Assembly (NCBI GenBank): GCA_963712745.1
Contig: CAVQJC010000012.1
Coordinates: 13,319-77,318 of the forward strand
Length of the DNA: 64,000 nt
Origin: an uncultured Chloroflexia bacterium
Lineage (GTDB): Bacteria; Chloroflexota; Limnocylindria; Limnocylindrales; CSP1-4
Reading direction: 5' to 3'
The position numbers were made by a program, and so were the translations under genes. This document shows, in pieces, positions 1-14,665 of the stretch. How positions within the stretch are numbered: the first letter of the stretch is position 1; each line of letters begins with the position of its first letter. The notes beneath the pieces were generated by a model. That model was given only the letters and a program-made list of their open reading frames with translations, ran no database searches and was not told the DNA's origin.

Positions 1-245
1 ACTTCAGGTCGAGGTCGAGGTTTCGTCGCCCGGCCCCCCGGGGCGGGGCGGCGGGAGGGGGGGGATCTCGACTCAAGGTCGGGTCGGCCCTAGAGCGGGC
101 GCGTGGGAGCGCCGTCTTTCTCACGGGTTTCCACCTTCTCTGCACAGGCCCCGTCAGCCGCAGAGCCCTGTTCCATGCGGGTCACCCCTCCCTAAGGGGG
201 CCATAGGACTATGCGATTCCGGTCACGCGCCGCGGGGCCGGCGGC

Positions 246-289
246 CTGTCCATTCCCTGTCCATTCTCCGTCCACGCGCTGTCCACCGA
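246..289. promoter_or_regulatory. four 11-bp direct repeats (C[T/C]GTCCA core), putative regulator binding site
   Basis: ctgtccattcc/ctgtccattct/ccgtccacgcg/ctgtccaccga in exact 11-nt phase, upstream of the sigma-like gene. Confidence 0.4.
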
Positions 290-659
290 CGGCGCGATGT
301 CAGCGCACGGGACACGTCGTCGGCGGGCACCGGCACCTCGAGGGGTTGACACATGGGTGGCACGTCGCAGCTCGATGCCGCCCCTGTCGACCGCAGGAGC
401 GCGAGGCCAACCGGCGGCGGCCAATGGAGGCTCTGGTTCCTGCACCCCGCGCTGTGCGGAGGGTCGAACCGGCGCGAAGGATGACGAGACGCGGTCCCAT
501 GCCGTCGCCCGCGGCATGCGGTGCACCTCCGATCGGGAAGGCCTTCGCCCCCGCGCAATCGCACAGGAGTCGTTCACGGGCCGAGCGGGCCCCGTTGATC
601 GCGATCTCCGTCACCCAGTGGCCCTCGCCCGTTGGCACAATGGCGTTGAGGTGCTTCGC

Positions 660-1322
660 ATGGTGGGAGACCGCGGTTGTGTGGTTGGAGGCCGGTCTCC
701 AAACCAGGCTCGCCTGGATGAAGGGGAGTGGGCAGCGCTCGATCGGTGGGCGGACTTCGTCGCGAGGCGGTTGGCCACGCACTCCGGGTTCGATGAGCAC
801 GTGGCGAGGGACGTCAAGCAGGCTGCGCTCCTGAATCTGCTGCGAGGCCGCGAGGACCAGGGGCTCAGGATCCGGAGCACCAAGGCCTGGGTCCGGTGCG
901 TGATGAAACGCGGCTTCCACGACATCCACCGCGGCCGGCCCGGCGCCTGCGGGCCCGCGCGGTGCCCACAAGTCACCGACCTGGACGATCTGCCATCGCC
1001 GGGCGCAGACGGGCCAGAGGCCCGGGCGACGCGGCGCGACCTCATGGAGGAGGCCCAACGCCTGCTCGGCAGCCTCCCACCTCCTCACCGCGAGATCGCC
1101 TGTCTGCGGTTTCGAGAGGATTGGTCGCGCCGCGAGGTCATCGCGTGGCTGCGTCTGTGGCGCCCCGTTGGCGAGGAGTGCGCCCGCAAGTTGTTGCGTC
1201 AGACGAACCGCATGCTCTGGGCCCTGGGTCATGGTGTAGACGTCCGAGGGCGTTGGCCGGGTCGGTTTTCGGCGAAGAGAAACCGGTTTCTGCGTACCCC
1301 TCCCCCGCCGTTGCGCGACTAG
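660..1322 (+). CDS. ECF-type sigma-70 family factor (divergent)
   Basis: Region 2-like DVKQAALL...AWVRCVMKR and region 4-like LGSLPPPHREIACLRFREDWSRREV. ATG 660 has GAGGT upstream; the ORF is open from 297, so the start is uncertain. Confidence 0.65.
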   Translation: MVGDRGCVVGGRSPNQARLDEGEWAALDRWADFVARRLATHSGFDEHVARDVKQAALLNLLRGREDQGLRIRSTKAWVRCVMKRGFHDIHRGRPGACGPARCPQVTDLDDLPSPGADGPEARATRRDLMEEAQRLLGSLPPPHREIACLRFREDWSRREVIAWLRLWRPVGEECARKLLRQTNRMLWALGHGVDVRGRWPGRFSAKRNRFLRTPPPPLRD

Positions 1323-1418
1323 GGCTGTAGGGGCGCCGCGCAACGAGGAACGCAATCCTCGGAAGCCGGCCCGCCGGGCGGCACTCCACCCCGGTGGGCT
1401 CCGGACCCGGAGGACAGG

Positions 1419-1745
1419 ATGGAGATCCGTTCCCAGTTCGAGACCCCGGGCCAGCCCGAGGAGGGCGGGAGCCGGCCCAAGCCTGCTGCCCGGACCGAGG
1501 CTGGTGCCACGCGTCCCGCCGTGCTGCGCATCGACGTTCGCAGCGCCGTGACGGGCGAGACCTGCACGGTCGACTTGCAGCTCGGCAGCGAGGACGAGAA
1601 GGACTGGGTGGCGCTCCAGAGCGCGGAGATCGACCCCACCATCCGCCAGGTCAGATGGCCGGTCCCACCCGTTCCGGCCCGGCGACTGCGGCTCCAGCTC
1701 GAGCCGCACGGCGACACGGAGATCCGCCCGTGGCTCGAGTCGTGA
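1419..1745 (+). CDS. small beta-sandwich (galactose-binding/discoidin-like) hypothetical protein
   Basis: GGAGG RBS; VDLQLGSEDEKDW...PARRLRLQL resembles the S-x-D-x-x-x-W...R-x-x-R-L pattern of jelly-roll domains. Confidence 0.55.
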   Translation: MEIRSQFETPGQPEEGGSRPKPAARTEAGATRPAVLRIDVRSAVTGETCTVDLQLGSEDEKDWVALQSAEIDPTIRQVRWPVPPVPARRLRLQLEPHGDTEIRPWLES

Positions 1746-1786
1746 TCCGTCTGGCGCGCACCGGCATCCGTCTGGCGCGCACCGGC
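1745..1786. repeat. perfect 21-bp tandem duplication
   Basis: atccgtctggcgcgcaccggc x2. Confidence 0.9.
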
Positions 1787-1896
1787 TCGCTGCACCCGGG
1801 GACAACATCCCTGGCGGCGACCCATCCTCGGCCTCGGCGCCACCGGGCGATCGACGGCGGACCCGGGTACGTCATCTCCGATCGGACCGGTGCCCG

Positions 1897-2331
1897 ATGA
1901 GAGTGGCCAGCCGAGCCCAGCACGGCGTCCTGATCGCCTCGGCATCCGCCACGGCGCTGCAGTCCTCGGCGCCGACCCCCGGCCTCATCCCGCTCCTGAA
2001 GAGCCTCCCCTACGCGGCCGACGTGAACCAGCCGTTCCGCACCGACTGGGTCGCCTGCGATCCCCAGCACGAGAACGCGACCATCCACGTCCACTGCCAG
2101 ACGCTCTCGCCGGCCACCCTCGCCTTCGGGATCGGTGTCAAGATCCACAGCTCCTTCGACACCGTCGAGGCCTATCAGGTCGGTAGCAACATTGGCGTGA
2201 CCGGCGTGGGCAGCTACAGCACCGCCATCACGGCCGACCTCGGCCCGTGGCTGCGCGTCGAACTCATCAACGGCGAGGTCGTGCCGCTCTACGCCGTCCT
2301 CAGCGTCTGGCTCCAACCCAAGAGCAACTGA
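1897..2331 (+). CDS. HVHCQT-family small protein, paralogue 1
   Basis: DW...NATIHVHCQT...SSFD...GPWLRV...LSVWLQPKSN; has an N-terminal extension, start uncertain. Confidence 0.8.
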   Translation: MRVASRAQHGVLIASASATALQSSAPTPGLIPLLKSLPYAADVNQPFRTDWVACDPQHENATIHVHCQTLSPATLAFGIGVKIHSSFDTVEAYQVGSNIGVTGVGSYSTAITADLGPWLRVELINGEVVPLYAVLSVWLQPKSN

Positions 2332-2349
2332 ATCAGGAGGAGAACTGCA

Positions 2350-2700
2350 ATGGGACCGCTCGTTCTTGCGAAGAACTTCACGATCGCCATGGGCGTCGGC
2401 CAGACTTTCGTCGGCGATTGGATCGGGATGGACAGCCAGTTCCAGAACGGCACCATCCACGTCCACTGCCAGACGGTCACCCCGACGGCCGGAGGGGGCA
2501 TCGACGTCCAGGTCGAGACCTCCTACGACACGGTGGAGGCCAACCAGATCGGGGCCACCGTCACCGTCAACTCGACCGGGAGCCAGAGCCAGGGAATCAC
2601 TCAGGACATCGCCGCGATGGTGCGCCTGAAGCTGGTGAACTCCCAGGGTGCGGACATCTGGGCGACCTTGAGCGTCTGGCTCCAGCCCAAGAGCACGTAG
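2350..2700 (+). CDS. HVHCQT-family small protein, paralogue 2
   Basis: AGGAGG RBS; MGPLVLAKNF...GDW...NGTIHVHCQT...LSVWLQPKST. Confidence 0.9.
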   Translation: MGPLVLAKNFTIAMGVGQTFVGDWIGMDSQFQNGTIHVHCQTVTPTAGGGIDVQVETSYDTVEANQIGATVTVNSTGSQSQGITQDIAAMVRLKLVNSQGADIWATLSVWLQPKST

Positions 2701-2728
2701 CGCCTTTGGCGGGGAAGGGCTGTGCGCG

Positions 2729-3091
2729 ATGGGGGCGATCCTCCTGGCCAAGAACTTCTCGTTCGTGGCGGCCTCGGGCCAGTTCGTCTACGGGGACTGG
2801 GTCGAGGTCGACAGCCGATGGCTGCAGGGGAACATCCACGTCCACTGCCAGACGCTGTCGCCGCCGGGCGCGGGCAACGTGCTCGCGGTCGGCGTCCAGA
2901 CCTCGGCCGACGGCGTCGAGAGCAACGAGACCGTGTCGCCGATCAACGTCAATCAGCCAGGCTCGTACGACCAGCCGATTCCGGGGCCGGGCGCGAGCAT
3001 CGAGCGATTGGTGCGTCTCAAGCTCCAGGACAACACCGGCTCGTTCGTGATGGGCATCCTGAGCGTCTGGCTGGATCTCGAGACCGCGTAG
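2729..3091 (+). CDS. HVHCQT-family small protein, paralogue 3
   Basis: MGAILLAKNF...GDW...GNIHVHCQT...QTSADG...VRLKL...LSVWL. Confidence 0.9.
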   Translation: MGAILLAKNFSFVAASGQFVYGDWVEVDSRWLQGNIHVHCQTLSPPGAGNVLAVGVQTSADGVESNETVSPINVNQPGSYDQPIPGPGASIERLVRLKLQDNTGSFVMGILSVWLDLETA

Positions 3092-3119
3092 TACTGCGGA
3101 AGGGAAGGACAGGCAGCCG

Positions 3120-3473
3120 ATGGGTCCGCTGGTCCTGGCGAAGAACTTCCTGATGGTGGCGCACCAGGGGCAGCGGTTCCTGGGCGACTGGACGCCCATG
3201 GACAGCGAGTTCCAGAACGCCGAGATCCACGTGCACTGCCAGACGATCTCGCCCACGGGCCTGGGCAGCGGATTCACCACGTCGGTGGAGAGCTCGTTCG
3301 ACAGGGTAGAGAACTACCAGCTCGGCGGGGCGCTCGCGGTCAATGCGCCGTTCAGTCAGACCGCGCCGGTGACGTCCGACATCGGACCCTGGGTCCGGCT
3401 GCGCATCGAGAACGTGGAGGCGGTTCCGGTGGTCGGGATCCTCAGTGTCTGGCTGCAGGCGAAGAGCACATGA
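3120..3473 (+). CDS. HVHCQT-family small protein, paralogue 4
   Basis: MGPLVLAKNF...GDW...NAEIHVHCQT...SSFD...GPWVRL...LSVWLQAKST. Confidence 0.9.
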   Translation: MGPLVLAKNFLMVAHQGQRFLGDWTPMDSEFQNAEIHVHCQTISPTGLGSGFTTSVESSFDRVENYQLGGALAVNAPFSQTAPVTSDIGPWVRLRIENVEAVPVVGILSVWLQAKST

Positions 3474-3501
3474 TGCGCTTGAATACAGGTAGGAACGATG
3501 C

Positions 3502-4884
3502 ATGGGGCCGCTCACAGGATGGAAGTGCGCGCCATCAGTGCCAGCCTTGCCTAGTTCTGCTCCGACGCCTGCAACGGGCACATTGTCTGCCGCCCAAGGT
3601 CGTGCATTGTTCTGCTGCGCAGAGCGTCGAGGAATGACGAGAAGGGAGCATGGAGTGAGCTGCAAATGCCGGAGTGGATGTCTACATCGCGCCGAGCCTG
3701 AGCGAAAACTAGAGGGTCCGTCGAACTACGCCGCACGGTCCTCCACGCCTGTCCTGGGGCAATTCGTGGACCAGTCCGCCTATGCGACGCTCTCTCAGCG
3801 CTCCACGGACACACCGGCAACTGTTCTACCTGCAGGTGCCTCTTGCGGTAGTCCGGCGGCGCCTGGAGTCCAGCCGCGGTTCCGGCCCCTCGTTGCGCCA
3901 ACTCTGGGATCCGTGTGGGCCCCAGAAGGAGGTGTTGGCCACCTCGTCTACGGCGCGGGCCTGCCGCCTGCGACCTTTCGTGCGTCCGATGATGGCGATG
4001 ACGGAGTCAATGGGGGAAGTGGGATAGGTGCGGGCAGTGAGAATGGTGGGGGCGAGCCGCCGGCTCCCGTGATACGCAAGAGCACCAGCGTTGCGCCGGC
4101 TCCGCCCATCTGCTGTCCGAAGCTTTATTACCCCCTCAATCTAGATGGCCCAACGGTAGGCAAGAAGGGGGCCGCGCGCCTGCCTCAGTATAAGAGGCCC
4201 CTACACAAGAAGTTCCCCCACTGTAGGGAAATCAGCTTCAGCTTCTCGTGGAAGGCCAAGTTCGATCCCGCGCCGTCGCCCTGTCGTTGCTCCTGCTGTG
4301 AATTCCGCCAGATACTCCTCAAGAACGACGTGACTTTGGAGCAACAGGGACTGGGAAGTGGCAGTGGCAGCGGCGGGGAGAGTTGGAATCGCACATACCC
4401 AGATCCCGGAGCTGGCAAGGAGGACTGTCGCTGGACCTATCAGATCCACGAACTCAGGCCACCACACATGCCGATCAAGGATGCCACATATGTGAGGTTT
4501 GGAGGGCCGGACAGAGAGCCGGGTCCCTACTCTCCCCCCCCGCCATCGACGTTGCTCAAGGGACCCGAGTGCTATGGACATCGAAGGAAGGGAGCTGACG
4601 GAACGGGGCCCGATCCCGATCCTGGCTACCCGGCGGGTGATGACTGCCTGTACAGTGGAAAGGACACTCCCACGGTCATCATTCCCCCGAAGTGCACCTT
4701 CACCTGGATCTGGAAAGCAAAGGCGTTCATTCTTGACACGTGCTCTGGTGGTGAACATGAGGTGCGCTTCCTTGACGTCAAGGTGACGGGCGAGACGGAC
4801 TCAACGGGCGGCGTGGACAATCTGCACCTCACGCAAACTGTGACACAGTACCACAGTAGGCCTGCATACCCTGGTGAACGATGA
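3502..4884 (+). CDS. hypothetical protein with low-complexity N-terminus and Cys-rich C-terminal domain (putative polymorphic effector)
   Basis: 460-aa ORF with visibly lower GC than the upstream genes; CC, CRCSCCEFRQ, CYGHR, CLYSGKDTP, ILDTC; true start may be downstream (MTRREHG). Confidence 0.65.
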   Translation: MGPLTGWKCAPSVPALPSSAPTPATGTLSAAQGRALFCCAERRGMTRREHGVSCKCRSGCLHRAEPERKLEGPSNYAARSSTPVLGQFVDQSAYATLSQRSTDTPATVLPAGASCGSPAAPGVQPRFRPLVAPTLGSVWAPEGGVGHLVYGAGLPPATFRASDDGDDGVNGGSGIGAGSENGGGEPPAPVIRKSTSVAPAPPICCPKLYYPLNLDGPTVGKKGAARLPQYKRPLHKKFPHCREISFSFSWKAKFDPAPSPCRCSCCEFRQILLKNDVTLEQQGLGSGSGSGGESWNRTYPDPGAGKEDCRWTYQIHELRPPHMPIKDATYVRFGGPDREPGPYSPPPPSTLLKGPECYGHRRKGADGTGPDPDPGYPAGDDCLYSGKDTPTVIIPPKCTFTWIWKAKAFILDTCSGGEHEVRFLDVKVTGETDSTGGVDNLHLTQTVTQYHSRPAYPGER

Positions 4885-5489
4885 CGCTTTCAAGCGAATT
4901 GCGGCTTCCTCCCATTCGAGAACTGGGCGGATCGCCATCTTGGTCGACCGGGGCCTGTCGACTCGCACTGACGCTGCTCGCGATGGCCTTCAGTGCTGGC
5001 GCCTGCGGAGCGGAGAAGCCGAGCGCGAAGACTGCAACAGGCAGGAGCGCGATGCTCTCCACTACGGAGTGCTACTCGTGGAGCCGAAGAGGACTGCATC
5101 GCAACCAAGGGCCTGACACCCAGGGTGTTGATATTGCTCTGCACGCGAGCGGACAGTACGAGGCAGCGATCCACAGTCTGATGCTCGAGTCACTTTATGA
5201 ATCCGGCAGGTGGACCTCCGAACGTGGGAGAGTTCTGTTTCATCCTGCCGCTGACAGTGCCTACGTCCCGGCGTACCGTAGTCTCTACGCAGTTGCATGG
5301 GAGCCTGGTGAGTCACTCGGATGGGTTGTTGATGAGACTGCGGTGAAGGATCCACGCGACGGGCAGTCGCCGACATGGGAGACTGTCCAAGTTCAGTTCG
5401 TCAGGGCTAGCGCGACTGACTGCCACAGCGTGCAGGATGCTCTTAGGCGCGCTGTGGGTGCGAGCGGAAGCAGCGGAGAAACCAAGTAG
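4881..5489 (+). CDS. putative lipoprotein (candidate immunity partner)
   Basis: ATGA overlap with the upstream stop; hydrophobic stretch ending in lipobox-like AGA-C. Confidence 0.6.
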   Translation: MTLSSELRLPPIRELGGSPSWSTGACRLALTLLAMAFSAGACGAEKPSAKTATGRSAMLSTTECYSWSRRGLHRNQGPDTQGVDIALHASGQYEAAIHSLMLESLYESGRWTSERGRVLFHPAADSAYVPAYRSLYAVAWEPGESLGWVVDETAVKDPRDGQSPTWETVQVQFVRASATDCHSVQDALRRAVGASGSSGETK

Positions 5490-5508
5490 CTCGACCTCGT
5501 AGGTCGAG
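5490..5508. terminator. short hairpin after the lipoprotein gene
   Basis: ctcgacct-cgt-aggtcgag, 8-bp stem, no U tract. Confidence 0.3.
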
Positions 5509-5533
5509 AGGATCGACGGGAGGATCAGGTGTT

Positions 5534-5638
5534 GGTGACAACCGACATCGGACCCTGGGTCCGGCTGTGCTCGAGAACACGGAGGCATTCCCGGTGGTCG
5601 GGATCCTCAGTGTCTGGCTGCAACTGAGGAGAACCTAG
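5534..5638 (+). repeat. degenerate copy of the 3' end of paralogue 4 (3368-3473)
   Basis: Shares ccgacatcggaccctgggtccggctg and ccggtggtcgggatcctcagtgtctggctgca exactly; one 1-nt deletion; stop codon at the equivalent position. Confidence 0.92.
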
Positions 5639-5653
5639 GGCAGAGGAGGAAGT

Positions 5654-6284
5654 ATGGCGACGGATCCCTTGGGAGACTGTGCCTGCCAGAATGTGCAGCA
5701 TCCGGCGAGTGTGGCCGTACCTCGGCCGTCAGTCCTTTCGCCTCATGAGCTTGTGTATGTGACTCCCGGAACTCTACCCGGAGCACCGACAAGCGCCGCT
5801 TGGCGGCCGGGCGGCCTGCCTCTGCCAGCCTCGCACCCGCTTCAGAAACTGCCTTCGGAGTTCTTGGAGTCGTTAGTCGATGAGGTTCAGCGTAGCGGCA
5901 ACCTCCTAGAGGTTGCCTTGAGGGTGCGCGAGCCTCAAGGCTCGCCGGCGAACGCAACGCTGGTTGCTCAGCAGACGCTCGCCAGCGCCGGCCGACCATC
6001 TGCGTGCGAGGCGCTTGGCGCTTCCGAATCCTCCAGACTGGAACGAGTGGACCATGGCAAGTGGAGGGCCAACGGGCGGCCCGAGTGGGATGCGTGTGGT
6101 TCTTGACGGCACCATGGATGTGGCAGACGGCGAGACAGGTACGATTGGGTTTTCAACGAACTCGCATATCGAGGGGGCGGCGCCCAACAGCTGGGTCATG
6201 CAGGAGGTGAGGTGGTGGGAGTATGGCCTAGATCCCACTTGCGGGAAGCTCACATGGGAGACCGCATCCGTCTCCGACGCCTAG
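5654..6284 (+). pseudogene. second cassette ORF, apparently frameshifted and/or truncated
   Basis: GAGGAGG RBS before ATG 5654 (MATDPLGDCAC). Protein-like text continues in another frame (5964-6284: ...SWVMQEVRWWEYGLDPTCG) and then ends. Confidence 0.45.
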
Positions 6285-6322
6285 CTGACCCCCGCCAACC
6301 TGCACCGGCAGCTGGAGCTAGA

Positions 6323-6637
6323 TCAGCGACCATCCCAGGTGTAGACAAGGGTGAGACCGCTTGCCGGTCGACCATCCCAGGTGTAGTCAAGGGTGAGACC
6401 GCTTGCCGGTCGACCATCCCAGGTGTGGACAACGGTGAGACCGCTTGCCGGTCGACCATCCCAGGTGTGGTCAAGGGTGTCATCGCTCGCCAGTCGGCCA
6501 GCCCAGCTGGGGTCAGGCGCGGCGATCGTGAACGTGGGCGAGATCTCGGCCAGACCTCCCCGCGCGGCCGTCATGCCCGGCAACATCGTTGCCAGAAGAC
6601 CGCCCGCAACGAGGGCCATGATGAATCGCCTCTTCAC
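6323..6637 (-). CDS. secreted repeat peptide (signal peptide + TWDGRPASGLT repeats)
   Basis: AGGAGG RBS, GTG start, Sec-type signal MKRRFIMALVAGGLLATMLPG, 14-aa in-frame repeats. Confidence 0.75.
   Translation of the reverse strand: MKRRFIMALVAGGLLATMLPGMTAARGGLAEISPTFTIAAPDPSWAGRLASDDTLDHTWDGRPASGLTVVHTWDGRPASGLTLDYTWDGRPASGLTLVYTWDGR
6327..6479. repeat. 42-bp tandem repeat, about 3.6 copies (coding)
   Basis: cgaccatcccaggtgt[a/g]g[a/t]caa[g/c]ggtgagaccgcttgccggt at 6327, 6369, 6411, partial at 6453. Confidence 0.95.
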
Positions 6638-6901
6638 GAAGCATCCTCCTAGTCCCCCTGGACGGTCACGCGGTGTTGTAGCGGGGATCGCTGCTCGGCG
6701 CGACCGCAGGCCTGAAATGTACAGCGTGGTGGTATGCGTTGTCTAGCCACGGCCAAGAGATTCTCGGGGTCGCCGTTCTATGTCTATGTGGCGAGGCTCC
6801 GGCCCCAGGCTTCCCCGACGCGCAGGAGATGCTTGCTTCTGTCCCGGAGATGCTCGCCGACCAGTAGCCGCCCGGGCGGCACCTCGGCTGCCGGCATCGA
6901 G

Positions 6902-6976
6902 GCCGATGTCCATGCTGGAGGCGGACTCTGACTCCCGCCCAGCAGCACAGGGGTTCCGAATCCCCCCTTCGGCACC
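6902..6976 (+). ncRNA. tRNA-like element / tRNA 3'-end remnant
   Basis: GGGG-TTCCGAAT-CCCC T-arm followed by CTTCGGC-ACC; GCCGATG at 6902 can pair with CTTCGGC; central hairpin with CTCTGAC loop; no D-arm. Confidence 0.4.
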
Positions 6977-7070
6977 GCCAGCACACGACACCTGGGACGC
7001 TCGGGCGCGGGTGCTCGGTGCATACTGCAGCCATCGACCCTGCGCCGGGGCCGTCGACAGAGGGTGAACC

Positions 7071-7454
7071 ATGACGCGCGTACTTGTCGTCCATCACGAT
7101 ATCGACCTCGCCGACCAGGAGGTCGAGTCGCTCCGCCGGCTTGGCTATGAACCTGTCGAGTGCGCGGGACCCTCCGGTTCCGCCTGCCCGGTCCTGCGCG
7201 GTGAGCATTGCCCTGACGTCTACAACGCTGACGTGCTCCTCTACGACGTCTGGTCCACGACCGAGTCGGGCGGCGGCCGGACGCTGATCGAGGGACTGCG
7301 TGAGATGCACCCCGAGATCCCCATCGTGCTCACGGCCCCTGGCATGGAGCTCGACTGGGTCGAGACCGAGGGCCTCCACAAGGTCGTACCGCTCGTTGGA
7401 CCACCAACGGCCGAGAAGCTGGATGCGGCCATCAAGGAGGCCCTCGCGCAATAG
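7071..7454 (+). CDS. atypical single-domain response regulator (receiver-like) with Cys-rich insert
   Basis: RVLVVHHD...LRRLGY...DVLLYD...HPEIPIVLT receiver pattern; CAGPSGSACPVLRGEHCP. Confidence 0.75.
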   Translation: MTRVLVVHHDIDLADQEVESLRRLGYEPVECAGPSGSACPVLRGEHCPDVYNADVLLYDVWSTTESGGGRTLIEGLREMHPEIPIVLTAPGMELDWVETEGLHKVVPLVGPPTAEKLDAAIKEALAQ

Positions 7455-7475
7455 CCCCGACCTCAGCGTCCAGGC

Positions 7476-8246
7476 TCAGTCGAAGAGGGTCGCCAGCCAA
7501 CGCCACCGATCACGCTTCGGTGCACGCGCGTCAGCCTCAGCGTTCCGCGCGGGTAGCGAGGCCGAGACGACGTCCTCGAGTCGCCTGCTCAGCTCTCGGG
7601 CGCGATCCCTTCCCTCAGCGGTGAACGGATCGACGACGGCCGGCCCGGTCTCGAGGGCGGTGAGGACGTCCAGGCTGAAGGTGGAGCCACGTACGATGTG
7701 ATGGGTACCAGCCACCACGACCGGGACCACGGGCGCACCCGAGCGCAAGGCGAGGTAGGCGAAGCCGGCCGAGATCGGGCGTGGCCGGTTCACCGGAGAG
7801 GGCGGCCCGACCTCCGGAAAGACCGCCAGGGCGAGGCCTCGCTCCAGTACCGCCGACGCGAGCTCGGCATAGCGCCGAGGGCCGCCGACGTCTCCCTCGA
7901 TGGGGATCACACCCAGTCGCGGCAGCAAGCGGCGTCGCCACCACGAGCGGGTGACCGTGCGACCGTCGGCCAGCCACACGAGGCGAGCCGCTTCAGGGGG
8001 CCAGGCTGCCATGAGCAGGAACGGCTCCACCCAGGCGCGATGCGGCGCGGCCGCGACCACGCAGCCCGATCCCGGCAGCTCGCCGACCCGCGGCAAGTCC
8101 CCGTGGTGCTTGATCTCGACGTGCCAGGCCATGACCCAGCACCAGCCGCGGACGACCAGGCGCAGCAGCCGCTCGAACCGACCCTGGCGCGCGGACAGCC
8201 CTCCGAGGGCGCGCTCGAACCGCTGTCGGGCGGCGGGGACGCTCAT
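7476..8246 (-). CDS. PlsC-family acyltransferase
   Basis: PHRAWVEP (HxxxxD variant), FPEVG, GFAYLA, APVVPV. Confidence 0.75.
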   Translation of the reverse strand: MSVPAARQRFERALGGLSARQGRFERLLRLVVRGWCWVMAWHVEIKHHGDLPRVGELPGSGCVVAAAPHRAWVEPFLLMAAWPPEAARLVWLADGRTVTRSWWRRRLLPRLGVIPIEGDVGGPRRYAELASAVLERGLALAVFPEVGPPSPVNRPRPISAGFAYLALRSGAPVVPVVVAGTHHIVRGSTFSLDVLTALETGPAVVDPFTAEGRDRARELSRRLEDVVSASLPARNAEADARAPKRDRWRWLATLFD

Positions 8247-8575
8247 CGGCCGTCCCGGTAGCGCTCCAACGTCGCCAGCTCGAGTTCGAGGTCGGCCACG
8301 TCGTGGCCGGCCGCGCGGTACGTGATGATGGCCCGGCGTCGCTCTTCGACCTCGCGCTCGACGAGTGTGGCGACCTCGTCCGGCCCCAGCTCCCGGCGCG
8401 GGACGTCGGCACTACCCTCGACTAGCGCGAACGGCCGCTCCTCGACCGGCACGGCCTCCGCGTTCGCCAGGGCCGTCTTGAGCGAAGCGATGGCCGCGAC
8501 CACCGCTCCACGACGGCCGCGACGAGCCCCCAGCAGGTCGGCCTCGAGTCGCGCCTGCAGCTCAGCGGGCTTCAC
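8243..8575 (-). CDS. GatB/YqeY-like small protein
   Basis: LQARL...AAIASLKTALANAEA...VPRREL...EREVEERRRA; overlaps both neighbours. Confidence 0.65.
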   Translation of the reverse strand: MKPAELQARLEADLLGARRGRRGAVVAAIASLKTALANAEAVPVEERPFALVEGSADVPRRELGPDEVATLVEREVEERRRAIITYRAAGHDVADLELELATLERYRDGR

Positions 8576-9474
8576 CGGGGGTCGTCCGCGGCAAGGTTCT
8601 CGTCCATCCAGTGCACTCCGAACTCGACCACGTCGGCAGCATCGAGGAGTTCGCTCGGCGCATCCCCGACCACGCCCGCACGATGTCGGCCGAGCGCGAG
8701 GTAGTCACGCAGGAGGTCTTCGAAGTAGTCCTTGCCCGGGTAGTCGACGATGCCCTCTGCGTCGTCGAGGCACTCGACGGTGCGGACGACCGGTCCTTCG
8801 CGTGTCGTCACCAGCCGATGCCGTCGCACACGCCGCTTGGGCGACACCGAGCAGAGGTACTCGGCGTGGTGGAGGGCAGTGACCGTGTCGAGGTCTGCGC
8901 CCAGTCGCAGGACGAGACCATCCCGCAGCAGCAGGCGCTCGAGCGGTGAGCCGGGACCGAAGTAGTCGTCCCAGGGCACGTCCGAGAGGAGCTCACCGGC
9001 CAGCGGGCCGGCGGCAGCGAAACGTGCCTCGGGATGGTCGCTGACCCTTGTCCCGGGCCGCCGACGGAAGACCTCAGCCAGCGTGCCGACCTCGGAGGCG
9101 GCGGGCGTACGTGCGGCGTCGAACGGCTCGGCGTCGGCCAGGAGAACGACACGGTCGGCCTCCGGGCGCTCGTTGACCCAGGCATGCCTGTCCTCCGCGC
9201 CCAGGACCATCAGCATCGTGCCCTCCTCGCCGAGGACATCACGGATGGCATCGATGACGCCGTCGGCGCCGCCCCAGACCGGCCCGAGCTTGCGCAGCGA
9301 GGCGTGGACCATCACGAGGTCGCCCGCTGAGAGGCCAAGGTGGCGAAGTCCGTCGGCGATGGCGCCTGGCGAGCGAGGTGTCACGTCCACGCACGTATCC
9401 TGCCATCGGCGGAACCCATCGGGGAGTACTGGCCGTTCCCGACCTCGATCCCACGGCAACGGTCCGCTCCGCAT
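8572..9474 (-). CDS. aminoglycoside N3-acetyltransferase (AAC(3)) family protein
   Basis: GDLVMVHASLRKLG, GGADGVIDA, RVSDHP, FGPGSPL, VLRLG, TALHHAEY; start uncertain. Confidence 0.85.
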   Translation of the reverse strand: MRSGPLPWDRGRERPVLPDGFRRWQDTCVDVTPRSPGAIADGLRHLGLSAGDLVMVHASLRKLGPVWGGADGVIDAIRDVLGEEGTMLMVLGAEDRHAWVNERPEADRVVLLADAEPFDAARTPAASEVGTLAEVFRRRPGTRVSDHPEARFAAAGPLAGELLSDVPWDDYFGPGSPLERLLLRDGLVLRLGADLDTVTALHHAEYLCSVSPKRRVRRHRLVTTREGPVVRTVECLDDAEGIVDYPGKDYFEDLLRDYLALGRHRAGVVGDAPSELLDAADVVEFGVHWMDENLAADDPR

Positions 9475-13008: not shown

Positions 13009-13830
13009 ATGATCAAGCTCCGAACCGCGGTCGCGACACTCGCGGCCCTGGCCCTGACCGCCGGCCTTGGCGCGTCGGCGCTGGCCGAGGATGAGCCCGA
13101 AGCGCAGCCGCTGGGCGTGTACGTGATCGAGGGCATCACCTGGATCCTCACCAGCCAGGCCATCGATGGCGAGCTTGTCGAGGTGCCTGACGGCGTGACC
13201 GTTTCGCTGCTCATGGAGGACGGCCGGGCCGGCGGCAGCGGCGGCTGCAACAGCTACTTCACCGACTACGAGCTCGACGGTTTCGACCTCTCGTTCGGTC
13301 CCGTGGGCTCGACCCTGATGGCCTGCCTGCCGCGCGTCTCGGACGTGGAGCAGGCCTTCTTCGCCAACCTGGGCCAGGTCGCGGCCTACCAGTCCGGCGG
13401 CATCCAGATGGCCTTGCTCGATGCCGCCGGGAACTCCATCCTCGGGTTCGACGCGGCCCCACCCGCCAGCGTGGTCGGCGCCTGGGTCGCCACCGGCATC
13501 AACAACCAGCTGGGCGAGAACGCCGGCGTGGTCAGCTCCGCCATCACCATGGAGGTGACCGCCGAGTTCAGGCCCGATGGGGACCTGACCGGTTTCGATG
13601 GCTGCAACAACTACTTCACGACCTACGAGGTCGACGGCGAGAGCATCGCCATCGACCCGATGATCGGCCAGACGATGATGGCCTGCCCATCCGACGAGCA
13701 CGCCGTGCAGGCACAGTGGTACATCGGGGCCTTGACCAAGGCCGCGACCTGGTCGATCGATGCCGGTGGCAACCTCGAGCTGCGCGATGCCGATGGCTCG
13801 CTGCAGGTGAGCTACTCGGCGGCGCCATAG
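13009..13830 (+). CDS. secreted tandem META-domain protein
   Basis: Signal peptide; two GxxGCN-Y...T-x-MAC repeats; GGAGG RBS. Confidence 0.88.
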   Translation: MIKLRTAVATLAALALTAGLGASALAEDEPEAQPLGVYVIEGITWILTSQAIDGELVEVPDGVTVSLLMEDGRAGGSGGCNSYFTDYELDGFDLSFGPVGSTLMACLPRVSDVEQAFFANLGQVAAYQSGGIQMALLDAAGNSILGFDAAPPASVVGAWVATGINNQLGENAGVVSSAITMEVTAEFRPDGDLTGFDGCNNYFTTYEVDGESIAIDPMIGQTMMACPSDEHAVQAQWYIGALTKAATWSIDAGGNLELRDADGSLQVSYSAAP

Positions 13831-13966
13831 GTCACTCGCGCGGACATCACGACGCCGGGACGCGGGCATCTGTCCCGGCGTCGATCGGGGCCGTGTTGCG
13901 CTACGATCGGCGCGTCGTCGAGCGTCGTCGCCGGGTGCCCGAGCCCGGGCAACAGGAGGATCCAGG

Positions 13967-14665
13967 GTGAACTCCAGCAGGGACAGCGAGCCGGTCTACA
14001 CCGCAGCCGAGGAGCAGCGCACGCGCCGTCAACTGCTCACGGCCGGAGGCGCGGCGGCCATCGCTGCAGCCCTCGGCGCCATCGGTATCTCTACCACCGT
14101 CGAAGCCAGGAACGGCCAGCCCGTCCGGGCCGGGACCAAGAACGCCGCCTCCAAGCCGACGACACTGATCGCGACGAAGGGGCCCGGGCTGCTGGCCAAG
14201 GTCACAGGCGGCGGCCGCACTGCCGCCGTGCGCGGAGTCTCCACCATCGCCAAGGGCATCGGCGTGCAGGGTGCTGCGGATGCCAAGAAGGGGCCGACGA
14301 TCGGCGTTTCCGGCACGACACGTTCGGCCGAGGGCAAGGCCGGCTCGTTCGTTGCCGACAACGGCGGCACCGCGCTCGAGGCCCGCTCCCCCCAGAAGAA
14401 GGGCGTCGCGCTGCGCACGGAAGGTCAGTTGCAGTTCACCGAACGCTCGGGCTCGTCGTCGGTCTCGGGCGGGGCGGAGTTCGTCATCCCGGTGGCCGGT
14501 GGACTGTCGGAGAAATCGCTGGTGCTGGCCACCCTGCAGGATCACTTCCCCGGCGTCCACGTGGAGGCGGCCTCCGTCCTTGATGCGGCCGATGGTCTCA
14601 TCGTGGTCCGCCTCAACCAGGCCGTGCCCGAGGCAGCGCGTGTGGCCTGGATCGTCCTCGATTGA
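13967..14665 (+). CDS. Tat-signal hypothetical protein with GVxG beta-repeat segment
   Basis: AGGAGG RBS; TRRQLL twin-Arg motif; AVRG/GVQG/GVSG repeats. Confidence 0.7.
   Translation: MNSSRDSEPVYTAAEEQRTRRQLLTAGGAAAIAAALGAIGISTTVEARNGQPVRAGTKNAASKPTTLIATKGPGLLAKVTGGGRTAAVRGVSTIAKGIGVQGAADAKKGPTIGVSGTTRSAEGKAGSFVADNGGTALEARSPQKKGVALRTEGQLQFTERSGSSSVSGGAEFVIPVAGGLSEKSLVLATLQDHFPGVHVEAASVLDAADGLIVVRLNQAVPEAARVAWIVLD

What the first reader, a model, noticed from the sequence alone, without database searches (positions are those of the whole stretch)
3368..5638. 3' end of paralogue 4 is duplicated as an anchor before each variable cassette
Seen: 3368-3473 recurs at 5534-5638 with long exact blocks, one 1-nt deletion and an equivalent stop (QAKST* vs QLRRT*). 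Each copy is followed within about 30 nt by a purine-rich RBS-like stretch and the ATG of a different ORF. Inference: recombination between anchors could insert, excise or swap the roughly 2.1-kb ORF+lipoprotein cassette directly behind the operon. This resembles orphan-module exchange in Rhs/CDI loci, but here the homology lies in the upstream gene rather than in the toxin.
Basis: partly seen in the sequence, partly recalled or inferred. Interest (0 to 1): 0.76.

Follow-up and report, generated by a model that had tools for sequence, protein, structure and literature searches.

The report
Dead gene stump marks toxin-module insertion
The repeated 105 bases are real: the second copy is a broken leftover of the last gene of a four-gene operon, stranded when a foreign toxin-like gene and its lipoprotein partner were recombined in behind that operon, so it looks like a one-off scar and not a working swap site.

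Summary
Window 3368-3473 recurs at 5534-5638: 89 of 106 aligned columns are identical, with exact blocks of 26 and 32 nt and one 1-nt deletion. There are only these two copies in the 4.2-Mb assembly.

Copy A is the 3' end of P4, the last of four tandem ~117-aa jelly-roll paralogues with no Pfam match. Copy B is a frameshifted stump with no 5' part.

The 2.0 kb between them has foreign codon composition. It carries a Cys-rich all-beta protein and a lipobox protein. The Cys-rich domain also occurs directly behind an RHS core in a metagenome contig and inside a contractile-injection cluster of another genome. That marks it as a polymorphic-toxin-type module.

Three related loci in one planctomycete family each carry a different ORF behind the last paralogue, so this operon end is variable. 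None of them carries a stump, and no reads show excision.

An 11-nt paralogue start motif sits exactly 28 nt after P4. A fifth paralogue may therefore have been gutted by the insertion.

Verdict: this is a one-off recombination scar at a variable toxin-module site. It resembles Rhs/CDI orphan formation, but the retained homology lies in a separate upstream gene. Interest is moderate.

The parts
1990..2331 (+). P1, first jelly-roll paralogue (longest ORF starts at 1897; family homology begins near 1990)
   Evidence: GC3 0.93
2350..2700 (+). P2 paralogue, 116 aa
   Evidence: GC3 0.92
2729..3091 (+). P3 paralogue, 120 aa
   Evidence: GC3 0.94
3120..3473 (+). P4 paralogue, 117 aa; AlphaFold2 gives a jelly-roll beta sandwich at pLDDT 92.9
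3368..3473 (+). copy A of the repeat: codons 84-117 of P4 plus the TGA stop
3474..3513 (+). 28-nt spacer followed by ATGGGGCCGCTC. The first 11 nt are the paralogue start motif, at the same 28-nt distance as the P2-P3 and P3-P4 spacers. Possible 5' relic of a fifth paralogue
   Evidence: 3 matches in the window against 0.17 expected; 0 of 100 shuffles reach 3
3514..5533 (+). about 2.0 kb module of foreign composition lying between the two paralogue relics
   Evidence: GC about 0.60 and GC3 0.52-0.67, against 0.92-0.94 in P1-P4; unique in the genome
3634..4884 (+). toxin-like ORF, 416 aa from M45. The longest ORF starts at 3502 and gives 460 aa. The choice of start is inferred from the homologues' lengths of 381-422 aa
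4069..4884 (+). conserved Cys-rich all-beta domain (my label: CCEF domain)
   Evidence: homologues P0013-15; G621 members; found behind an RHS core in L042; found in an eCIS cluster of G411; model at pLDDT 74
4881..5489 (+). lipobox protein, 202 aa; its start overlaps the stop of the toxin-like ORF (ATGA). Putative immunity partner (inferred)
   Evidence: no homologue found
5534..5638 (+). copy B: frameshifted 3' stump of a P4-type gene, ending in TAG
   Evidence: an independent public contig spans 5463-5701 without a difference
5654..6106 (+). ORF150, behind copy B with a strong GGAGGA site. It is an orphan ORF and may be the remnant of the earlier downstream gene
   Evidence: 0 homologues; GC3 0.65

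Best explanation
Copy B is the dead 3' end of a P4-type gene. It was cut off from its 5' part when a foreign module of about 2 kb was recombined into the end of the P1-P4 operon. The module consists of a polymorphic-toxin-type Cys-rich protein and a lipoprotein that is probably its protecting partner. Shown: the repeat itself; the frameshift; the absence of a 5' part; the foreign composition of the insert; the toxin-type contexts of its domain; and the variability of this position among related loci. Inferred: that the stump and ORF150 are the former end of the locus; that the event was recombination using homology in the paralogue on one side and an illegitimate joint at 5533/5534 on the other; or, alternatively, that the interior of a fifth tandem paralogue was replaced, a paralogue whose first 12 nt would survive at 3502-3513. 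Either way it is an evolutionary scar of a single event. The exact blocks of 26 and 32 nt could still allow rare RecA-type deletion of the module, but nothing shows that this happens or is selected.
For: (1) Only two copies exist in the assembly. Copy B is split over two frames by a 1-nt deletion, and homology starts abruptly at 5534. (2) GC3 is 0.92-0.94 in P1-P4, matching the window's host genes (median 0.89 for the 22 ORFs of 300 aa or more with GC3 above 0.8). It is 0.52-0.72 across the ORFs from 3502 to 6637. By hand count from the codon table, the stump has GC3 of about 0.81. It therefore sits as a paralogue-like islet between two foreign-looking segments. (3) The ORF in the insert has real homologues, P0013-15, at 68/48/44% identity over residues 190-460. 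Its domain also lies directly after an RHS repeat-associated core in contig L042 (TIGR03696, 41.3 bits against a cut-off of 32.5; tblastn E 1e-6 over residues 52-260; hhalign 94%). It also lies in a 327-aa ORF inside an eCIS cluster of G411 (hhalign 95%, 127 columns). (4) The next gene overlaps by ATGA and has a lipobox. A downstream ORF with a lipobox pattern follows in 5 of 6 such ORFs tested across the loci. (5) Behind the last paralogue, L008 has ORF119 + IS256 + ORF235 + lipoprotein, G621:C69 has ORF516, and G585:C119 has ORF252 + lipoprotein. These are unrelated to each other and to the window's ORF. (6) Between the copies there are 4 synonymous changes, 7 replaced codons, 1 frameshift, and a stop kept as a stop (TGA to TAG). 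This fits a once-functional gene end that then decayed. (7) ATGGGNCCGCT occurs 3 times in 64 kb: at the starts of P2 and P4, and at 3502, exactly 28 nt after the P4 stop. Only 0.17 matches are expected. (8) A public contig from another assembly covers 5463-5701 with no difference, so the junction of module, stump and ORF150 is not peculiar to this assembly.
Against: No strain or relative with the 'before' state (P4 joined directly to ORF150) could be found. The operon was not found in 24 same-genus, 16 same-order or 400 same-phylum genomes. ORF150 has no homologue at all and weak coding signal, so calling it the former downstream gene is only an inference. The two sub-models (displaced P4 end, or gutted fifth paralogue) cannot be separated. 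The four-gene arrays of L008 and G041 have no fifth copy. The 28-nt spacer before 3502 does not resemble the P3-P4 spacer, at about 9 of 28 positions by eye on the alignment. Toxicity of the ORF and protection by the lipoprotein are untested. The P4-to-module junction at 3473/3474 is supported only by the assembly itself.
Confidence: 0.6

Rival explanations
1. Working anchor. The P4 3' end is a reusable landing pad, and homologous recombination between copies repeatedly inserts, excises or swaps toxin-plus-lipoprotein modules, as proposed for the VENN-encoding repeats of cdi loci.
For: The layout is anchor, module, anchor, alternative ORF. Exact blocks of 26 and 32 nt remain. The position is variable among relatives. 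The module is of polymorphic-toxin type. Both segments behind the anchors look foreign. Poole et al. 2011 (PMC3150448; abstract and passages read) describe orphan modules that keep varying amounts of upstream cdiA sequence, and they discuss recombination between the conserved VENN-encoding sequences.
Against: There is one stump only, frameshifted and about 16% diverged. No stump appeared in the 20 related loci scanned by profile. No joints appeared in the contigs laid (very thin cover). ORF150 has no toxin domain, no partner gene and no homologue. The paralogue start motif at 3502 is not predicted by this model.
Confidence: 0.17
2. Purely local duplication. A tandem duplication within the paralogue array (unequal crossing-over) produced an extra P4 copy that simply decayed. 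The ORFs between and behind are old residents, and no module was acquired.
For: Tandem paralogues are prone to unequal crossing-over. G621:C69 shows an array reduced to a frameshifted or hybrid copy plus P4. The start motif at the regular 28-nt spacing fits a fifth array member.
Against: GC3 is 0.52-0.67 in the 2 kb between the relics, against 0.92-0.94 in the array. The domain of the intervening ORF occurs in Rhs and eCIS contexts in unrelated organisms. About 237 nt of the presumed fifth gene are missing exactly where the foreign DNA lies.
Confidence: 0.1
3. Assembly artefact. Two strain variants of the locus end (P4 to module, and P4' to ORF150) were strung together by the metagenome assembler through shared k-mers.
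For: The genome is a 20-contig assembly at 84.6% completeness and 5% contamination. The shared 32-nt block is as long as common k-mers.
Against: A contig from a public run spans 5463-5701 with no difference. It covers unique module sequence, the whole stump with its private variants, and the start of ORF150. This run may be the source sample, so it may not be independent. A P4-like fragment behind the module is needed in any case.
Confidence: 0.05

Closest known systems
Orphan cdiA-CT/cdiI and rhs-CT/rhsI modules behind CDI and Rhs loci (Poole et al. 2011, PMC3150448; abstract and passages read)
   Same: A current toxin-type gene with a small partner gene is followed by a fragment that repeats the conserved sequence lying in front of the variable part. 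The fragment precedes a different downstream ORF. The toxin-type domain here is itself found on an RHS core elsewhere. IS elements sit in related loci.
   Different: The repeated conserved sequence is the 3' end of a separate small upstream gene (P4), not part of the toxin gene. The toxin-like ORF has its own start. There is one stump, not an array. The distal ORF has no recognisable toxin domain or partner. No delivery protein (CdiA/CdiB, Rhs core, PAAR, VgrG) is encoded at the locus.
Homology-facilitated illegitimate recombination in natural transformation (recalled from de Vries and Wackernagel 2002; not read here)
   Same: There would be one homologous end (within the paralogue operon) and one abrupt non-homologous joint (5533/5534). 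This would give foreign DNA flanked by a retained piece of the recipient gene.
   Different: This is only an inference from the final structure. No donor, no transformation data and no microhomology of note were found at the joints.
PirA/PirB-type binary arrangement: a small jelly-roll protein encoded just upstream of a larger toxin
   Same: P4's model aligns to PirA with Z 9.0 (rmsd 2.9 A, 97 residues) and Z 7.5. A small jelly-roll gene directly precedes a larger toxin-like gene.
   Different: The Z values lie among many unrelated jelly rolls: XepA 10.2, phage cement protein 9.9, and CBMs about 9. There is no sequence similarity. Here there are four paralogues. The large protein shows no PirB/Cry-like fold; its best match is Z 5.6.
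Integron gene cassettes
   Same: Promoterless modules are added at a fixed place behind a conserved element.
   Different: No integrase and no attC-like imperfect inverted repeats are present. The repeat is a direct coding fragment.

Membership tests
Rhs/CDI-type orphan toxin-immunity array | The variable toxin is the C-terminal tip of a large conserved delivery protein (Rhs core or CdiA) | tested here: not met
   The toxin-like ORF is a separate gene of 416-460 aa. No RHS, filamentous haemagglutinin or other Pfam or NCBIfam family was found in it or in P1-P4.
Rhs/CDI-type orphan toxin-immunity array | The orphan keeps a piece of the conserved sequence that precedes the variable part | tested here: met
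   Copy B repeats 105 nt of the conserved gene end that precedes the variable ORF. This conserved part is, however, another gene.
Rhs/CDI-type orphan toxin-immunity array | The toxin domain is shared with established polymorphic toxins | tested here: met
   The domain follows an RHS repeat-associated core (TIGR03696, over its cut-off) in L042. It also occurs in an eCIS cluster of G411. No toxic activity was tested.
Rhs/CDI-type orphan toxin-immunity array | A cognate immunity gene lies immediately downstream and binds the toxin | tested here: inconclusive
   An overlapping lipobox ORF is present, but it has no homologue, and binding could not be assessed.
Rhs/CDI-type orphan toxin-immunity array | Several orphans, or the same module at different ranks in related strains | tested here: not met
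   There is one stump in this genome and none in the related loci. No strains of the species were available.
Transposon or IS insertion with target-site duplication | Short exact direct repeats, terminal inverted repeats and a transposase | tested here: not met
   The repeat is 105 nt and 84% identical. No inverted repeats flank 3474-5533. There is no transposase in 1-9000.
Integron cassette | A tyrosine recombinase IntI and attC sites | tested here: not met
   No recombinase family was found in the ORFs of 1-9000. There is no attC-like palindrome; the only hairpin, at 5490-5510, has z -1.5.
Pseudogene remnant of a tandem paralogue | A fragment of a family member with a disrupted frame, in array position | tested here: met
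   The C-terminal profile matches at E 2.8e-10, split over two frames. The start motif lies at the array spacing.

The most novel reading that the evidence does not exclude
The four jelly-roll paralogues may be a so far undescribed presentation or delivery scaffold for polymorphic toxins, shared between one planctomycete family and an actinobacterium. On this reading, the end of its last gene acts as the recombination landing pad at which toxin-plus-lipoprotein modules are exchanged. That would be the functional counterpart of the VENN or PxxxxDPxGL boundary, but placed in a separate gene. The window would show one captured exchange, with the old module stranded behind a stump.
Probability: 0.15. 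Interest if true: 0.75.

Novelty: new variant of a known kind. Interest (0 to 1): 0.45.

Why it matters
If the reading is right, the locus shows that the logic of polymorphic toxin loci (new module in front, old one stranded behind a retained piece of conserved sequence) also works when the conserved sequence is a separate small gene and not the body of the toxin gene. It also flags two uncharacterised families. One is a four-paralogue jelly-roll array found in one planctomycete family and in one genome of a second, probably actinobacterial phylum. The other is a Cys-rich all-beta domain that turns up behind an RHS core, in an eCIS cluster and behind this array, which is the usual signature of an exchangeable toxin or effector domain. 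The repeat itself is a single decayed scar, so its direct value is as a pointer to this system and not as a mechanism in its own right.

Tried and rejected
- Pfam, PHROGs and NCBIfam on P1-P4, the toxin-like ORF, the lipoprotein, ORF150 and the relatives' downstream ORFs gave no family. The only exceptions were IS256, IS3/IS481, a RuvC-like protein and weak sub-threshold ECF-sigma matches for 297-1322.
- The ESM Atlas gave no usable hit for the toxin-like ORF.
- Fold search of the Cys-rich domain gave only weak rows. Staphylococcal leukocidin/haemolysin chains filled the Foldseek list at E about 1e-3, but with TM about 0.22. The best VIA-align 2 (the in-house structural aligner) Z was 5.6. I treat this as no clear fold match.
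- Fold search of P4 gave a generic jelly roll: XepA Z 10.2, phage BPP-1 cement protein 9.9, CBMs, PirA and Ena pilins about 8. No function follows from this.
- Complex prediction of the Cys-rich domain with the mature lipoprotein gave no verdict (score 0.02). This is evidence neither for nor against binding.
- Public runs yielded three runs with 6-7% of the sampled words. Only contigs of 150-240 nt could be laid, and no joints were seen. The cover is too thin to say anything about excision.
- A viral-contig scan for the paralogue family found nothing. The scan for the Cys-rich domain gave one locus (L034). It and the metagenome locus L044 are an antisense frame of the same phage-like sequence, and I rejected both as spurious.
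- A metagenome-contig scan for the paralogue family found nothing.
- I tested whether the 104-aa protein upstream of the G621:C119 toxin-like gene (also present in L043) is related to the paralogues. hhalign gave 0.2%, so no relation was detected.
- I compared the first 60 residues of ORF460 with the N-termini of P0013-15. Scores fell below the shuffle means, so translation of 3502-3633 is unsupported.
- A shared Cys-x-Cys motif near the N-terminus occurs in ORF150, G621 ORF516, the window ORF and P0013-15. A 10-of-16 match links the first residues of P0014 and the G585 ORF252 (E 0.003 in a tiny search). I kept these as leads only, because they are too short to test.
- The hairpin behind the lipoprotein gene (5490-5510) is not better than shuffles, at z -1.5. 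No terminator or promoter pattern of note was found, and no tRNA lies in the window.
Full report
**Observation.** The repeat is real.
- The repeat finder lists 3368-3404 / 5534-5570 at 92% and 3406-3469 / 5571-5634 at 84%. The start-to-start spacings are 2166 and 2165 nt, so there is a 1-nt indel.
- With the gap placed, 89 of 106 columns are identical. The exact blocks are 26 nt (3376-3401) and 32 nt (3426-3457).
- A short-word blastn of 3474-6700 against 1800-3473 finds this pair at E 5.5e-24 and nothing else better than E 0.07.
- A DNA search of the whole assembly (4.2 Mb, 20 contigs, 84.6% complete) finds just these two places.
- Both copies end in a stop (QAKST-TGA, QLRRT-TAG). Each is followed by a purine-rich stretch and an ATG, after 28 nt for copy A and 15 nt for copy B.

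**What the copies are.** Copy A is codons 84-117 of P4 (3120-3473).
- P4 is the last of four tandem paralogues: P1 about 1990-2331, P2 2350-2700, P3 2729-3091 and P4. They are 41-53% identical to one another.
- The paralogues have no Pfam, PHROGs or NCBIfam family. P4 folds with high confidence (pLDDT 92.9) as a jelly-roll beta sandwich.
- The structural neighbours are generic: XepA Z 10.2, a phage cement protein 9.9, carbohydrate-binding modules and PirA about 9, and Ena pilins about 8. No function follows from these.
- Copy B is not a gene end in working order. Its first 12 codons and its last 21 lie in different frames because of the 1-nt deletion. Homology to the family begins abruptly at 5534, right behind the stop and a short hairpin of the preceding gene.
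- The differences from copy A are 4 synonymous changes, 7 replaced codons, the frameshift, and a stop that stayed a stop through two base changes. This fits a gene end that was once functional and then decayed.

**What lies between the copies.** The codon composition changes at the P4 stop.
- GC3 is 0.92-0.94 in P1-P4, like the host genes of the window (median 0.89 for 22 long ORFs). It is 0.52-0.72 from 3502 to about 6640.
- The stump has GC3 of about 0.81 by my hand count. It is therefore a paralogue-like islet between two foreign-looking segments.
- The long ORF 3502-4884 has three real homologues (P0013-15) of 381-422 aa. They are 68, 48 and 44% identical over residues 190-460, where a Cys-rich domain is conserved.
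- The first 60 residues are not conserved, and 3502-3633 has no coding signal in that frame. I therefore think the gene starts at 3634 (416 aa), but this is an inference.
- The domain model (pLDDT 74) is all-beta and has no clear fold match.
- The next gene (4881-5489) overlaps by ATGA and has a lipobox. It has no homologue in the 5.8-billion-protein collection.
- The whole 3474-6700 stretch is unique in the genome, apart from the repeat and an 80-nt match elsewhere.

**What kind of module this is.** Distant members of the Cys-rich domain turn up in three informative places.
- In planctomycete genome G621 there are two stand-alone genes (hhalign 97% and 96.5%). One is followed by a small ORF with a hydrophobic, Cys-containing N-terminus (no lipobox pattern) and lies next to an IS3-like gene start (my reading of the translated contig end; no family search was run on it).
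- In metagenome contig L042 the domain lies directly behind an RHS repeat-associated core (TIGR03696, 41.3 bits against a cut-off of 32.5). tblastn gives E 1e-6 over residues 52-260, and hhalign gives 94% on the core motif.
- In a same-phylum genome, G411, the domain ends a 327-aa ORF (hhalign 95%, 127 columns). That ORF lies among eCIS_core (PF13699) proteins and baseplate-like genes (the latter named from my reading of the ORF translations; only eCIS_core and the sheath were tested).

A domain that occurs on an Rhs tip, in a contractile-injection cluster and as a free gene with a small partner behaves like an exchangeable toxin or effector domain. That it is toxic, and that the lipoprotein protects, is inferred. 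A complex prediction gave no verdict.

**Relatives of the operon.**
- The paralogue family is rare. There are 10 hits in 5.8 billion proteins, of which three are the window's own.
- It was not found in 24 same-genus or 16 same-order genomes, nor in 400 same-phylum genomes.
- It was found in 5 of 401 sampled Planctomycetota. All of these belong to one family, in which 7 of 29 genomes match.
- The window itself is an ordinary chromosome stretch with DnaE, GatA/B, a sortase and a SpaA-type protein. Those genes suggest an actinobacterium. The operon's homologues lie in another phylum.
- L008 (G041) has the same four genes in one-to-one correspondence. They are followed by ORF119, an IS256 transposase, ORF235 and a lipoprotein.
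- G621:C69 has a frameshifted copy plus P4, followed by an unrelated ORF516.
- G585:C119 has one copy followed by ORF252 and a lipoprotein. On the other strand it has an ORF235 relative with its own lipoprotein.
- None of these downstream ORFs resembles the window's ORF or each other, apart from the ORF235 pair.
- None of the 20 related loci scanned with a C-terminal profile has a stump.

**A detail the anchor model does not predict.** ATGGGNCCGCT, the start of P2 and P4, occurs a third time at 3502.
- That position is exactly 28 nt after the P4 stop, and 28 nt is also the P2-P3 and P3-P4 spacing.
- There are three matches in 64 kb against 0.17 expected, and 0 of 100 shuffles reach three.
- With copy B, this looks like the two ends of a fifth paralogue whose middle (about 237 nt) was replaced by the 2.0-kb module.
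- Against a recent duplicate of P4, the spacer before 3502 does not resemble the P3-P4 spacer, and the planctomycete arrays have four genes.
- The alternative is that an incoming piece carrying a P4 end plus the module recombined by homology upstream and joined illegitimately at 5533/5534, stranding the resident P4 end. I cannot separate the two. Both are single events that leave a scar.

**Activity.**
- Only three public runs hold small parts of the stretch. The contigs that could be laid are 150-240 nt long.
- One contig spans 5463-5701 without a difference, which confirms the junction of module, stump and ORF150 outside this assembly. The run may, however, be the source sample.
- No joint was seen, but the cover is far too thin to count against excision.
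- ORF150 behind the stump has a strong ribosome-binding site. It has no homologue among 1.84 billion representatives, weak coding signal, and no partner gene. Its role as 'the older module' is conjecture, helped only by a short Cys-x-Cys motif shared with other downstream ORFs.

**Comparison with what is known.**
- The closest parallel is the orphan cdiA-CT/cdiI and rhs-CT/rhsI modules. Poole et al. 2011 (PMC3150448; abstract and passages read) describe orphans that keep varying amounts of the conserved upstream sequence. They also discuss recombination between the conserved VENN-encoding sequences as a way to change the toxin.
- The same features here are the retained conserved piece, the toxin-type module with a small partner, and IS elements in sister loci.
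- The differences are several. The conserved piece belongs to a separate small gene. There is one stump and not an array. The distal ORF is not a recognisable toxin. No known delivery protein is encoded at the locus.
- Transposon target duplication and integron cassettes fail their defining features.

**Verdict.** The best explanation is a one-off scar of a module insertion at a variable operon end (confidence 0.6). A working, reusable anchor remains possible at about 0.17. As a variant of orphan formation the repeat is of moderate interest (0.45). The more interesting lead is the uncharacterised four-paralogue array with its exchangeable toxin-type neighbours.

Noticed in passing
window 6285-6536 (repeat) and 6323-6637 (-): Five to six tandem copies of a 42-nt unit. 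On the minus strand they encode 14-aa repeats (HTWDGRPASGLT-like) in a 104-aa ORF with a signal-peptide-like N-terminus. It lies at the far edge of the low-GC3 segment. An 80-nt piece at 6619-6700 has a 79% match on contig C17 of the same genome.
   Followed up: partly
L008 10767-12008: An IS256-family transposase (344 bits) sits between ORF119 and ORF235 behind the planctomycete operon. It may split a single downstream gene. A RuvC-like gene follows the lipoprotein at 13373-13915 (-).
   Followed up: partly
L008 about 5540-5640, 7700-7800, 13950-14480: The same roughly 30-aa N-terminal peptide (MSARVLAPHRAYITRTLPRG...) heads several overlapping ORFs around the island. This suggests a repeated DNA element flanking it.
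   Followed up: no
L023 283-460 and L026 1-400 (G621 contigs C69 and C60): Two nearly identical upstream regions each lead into a paralogue gene. C60 breaks off inside the gene. In C69 the first paralogue is split over two frames and only two copies remain. This is either two copies or two strains of the locus in that assembly.
   Followed up: partly
L032 1354-1668 (-) and L043 1-462 (+): A different small beta-rich protein of about 104 aa (ending ...APxWRPY) lies directly upstream of a Cys-rich toxin-like gene in two independent loci. No relation to the jelly-roll paralogues was detected by hhalign.
   Followed up: partly
L041 3901-5563 (-), L028 3960-6268 (-), L029 3883-5454 (+): More distant relatives of the paralogue family (ending ...LSAWLTPKST) lie next to integrase-like genes. 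In G701 one forms the C-terminal part of a 524-aa ORF in a region that reads as prophage-like (integrase-like and prophage-like are my reading of the translations, no family search).
   Followed up: no
G000 contig C20 about 346-361 kb (outside the window): The window's own genome carries a contractile-sheath gene (PF04984, 92.8 bits) and two eCIS_core (PF13699) proteins. The three planctomycete genomes with the paralogue operon that were tested show neither.
   Followed up: no
window 297-1322 (+) and 1419-1745 (+): Upstream of the operon lie an ORF with weak, sub-threshold ECF-sigma similarity (best 24.5 bits) and a 108-aa ORF with host-like GC3 (0.89). Neither has a counterpart next to the planctomycete operons.
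   Followed up: partly
window 8572-9474 (-): An aminoglycoside 3-N-acetyltransferase family protein (PF02522, E 8e-53) lies about 3 kb beyond the locus. It has host-like composition.
   Followed up: no
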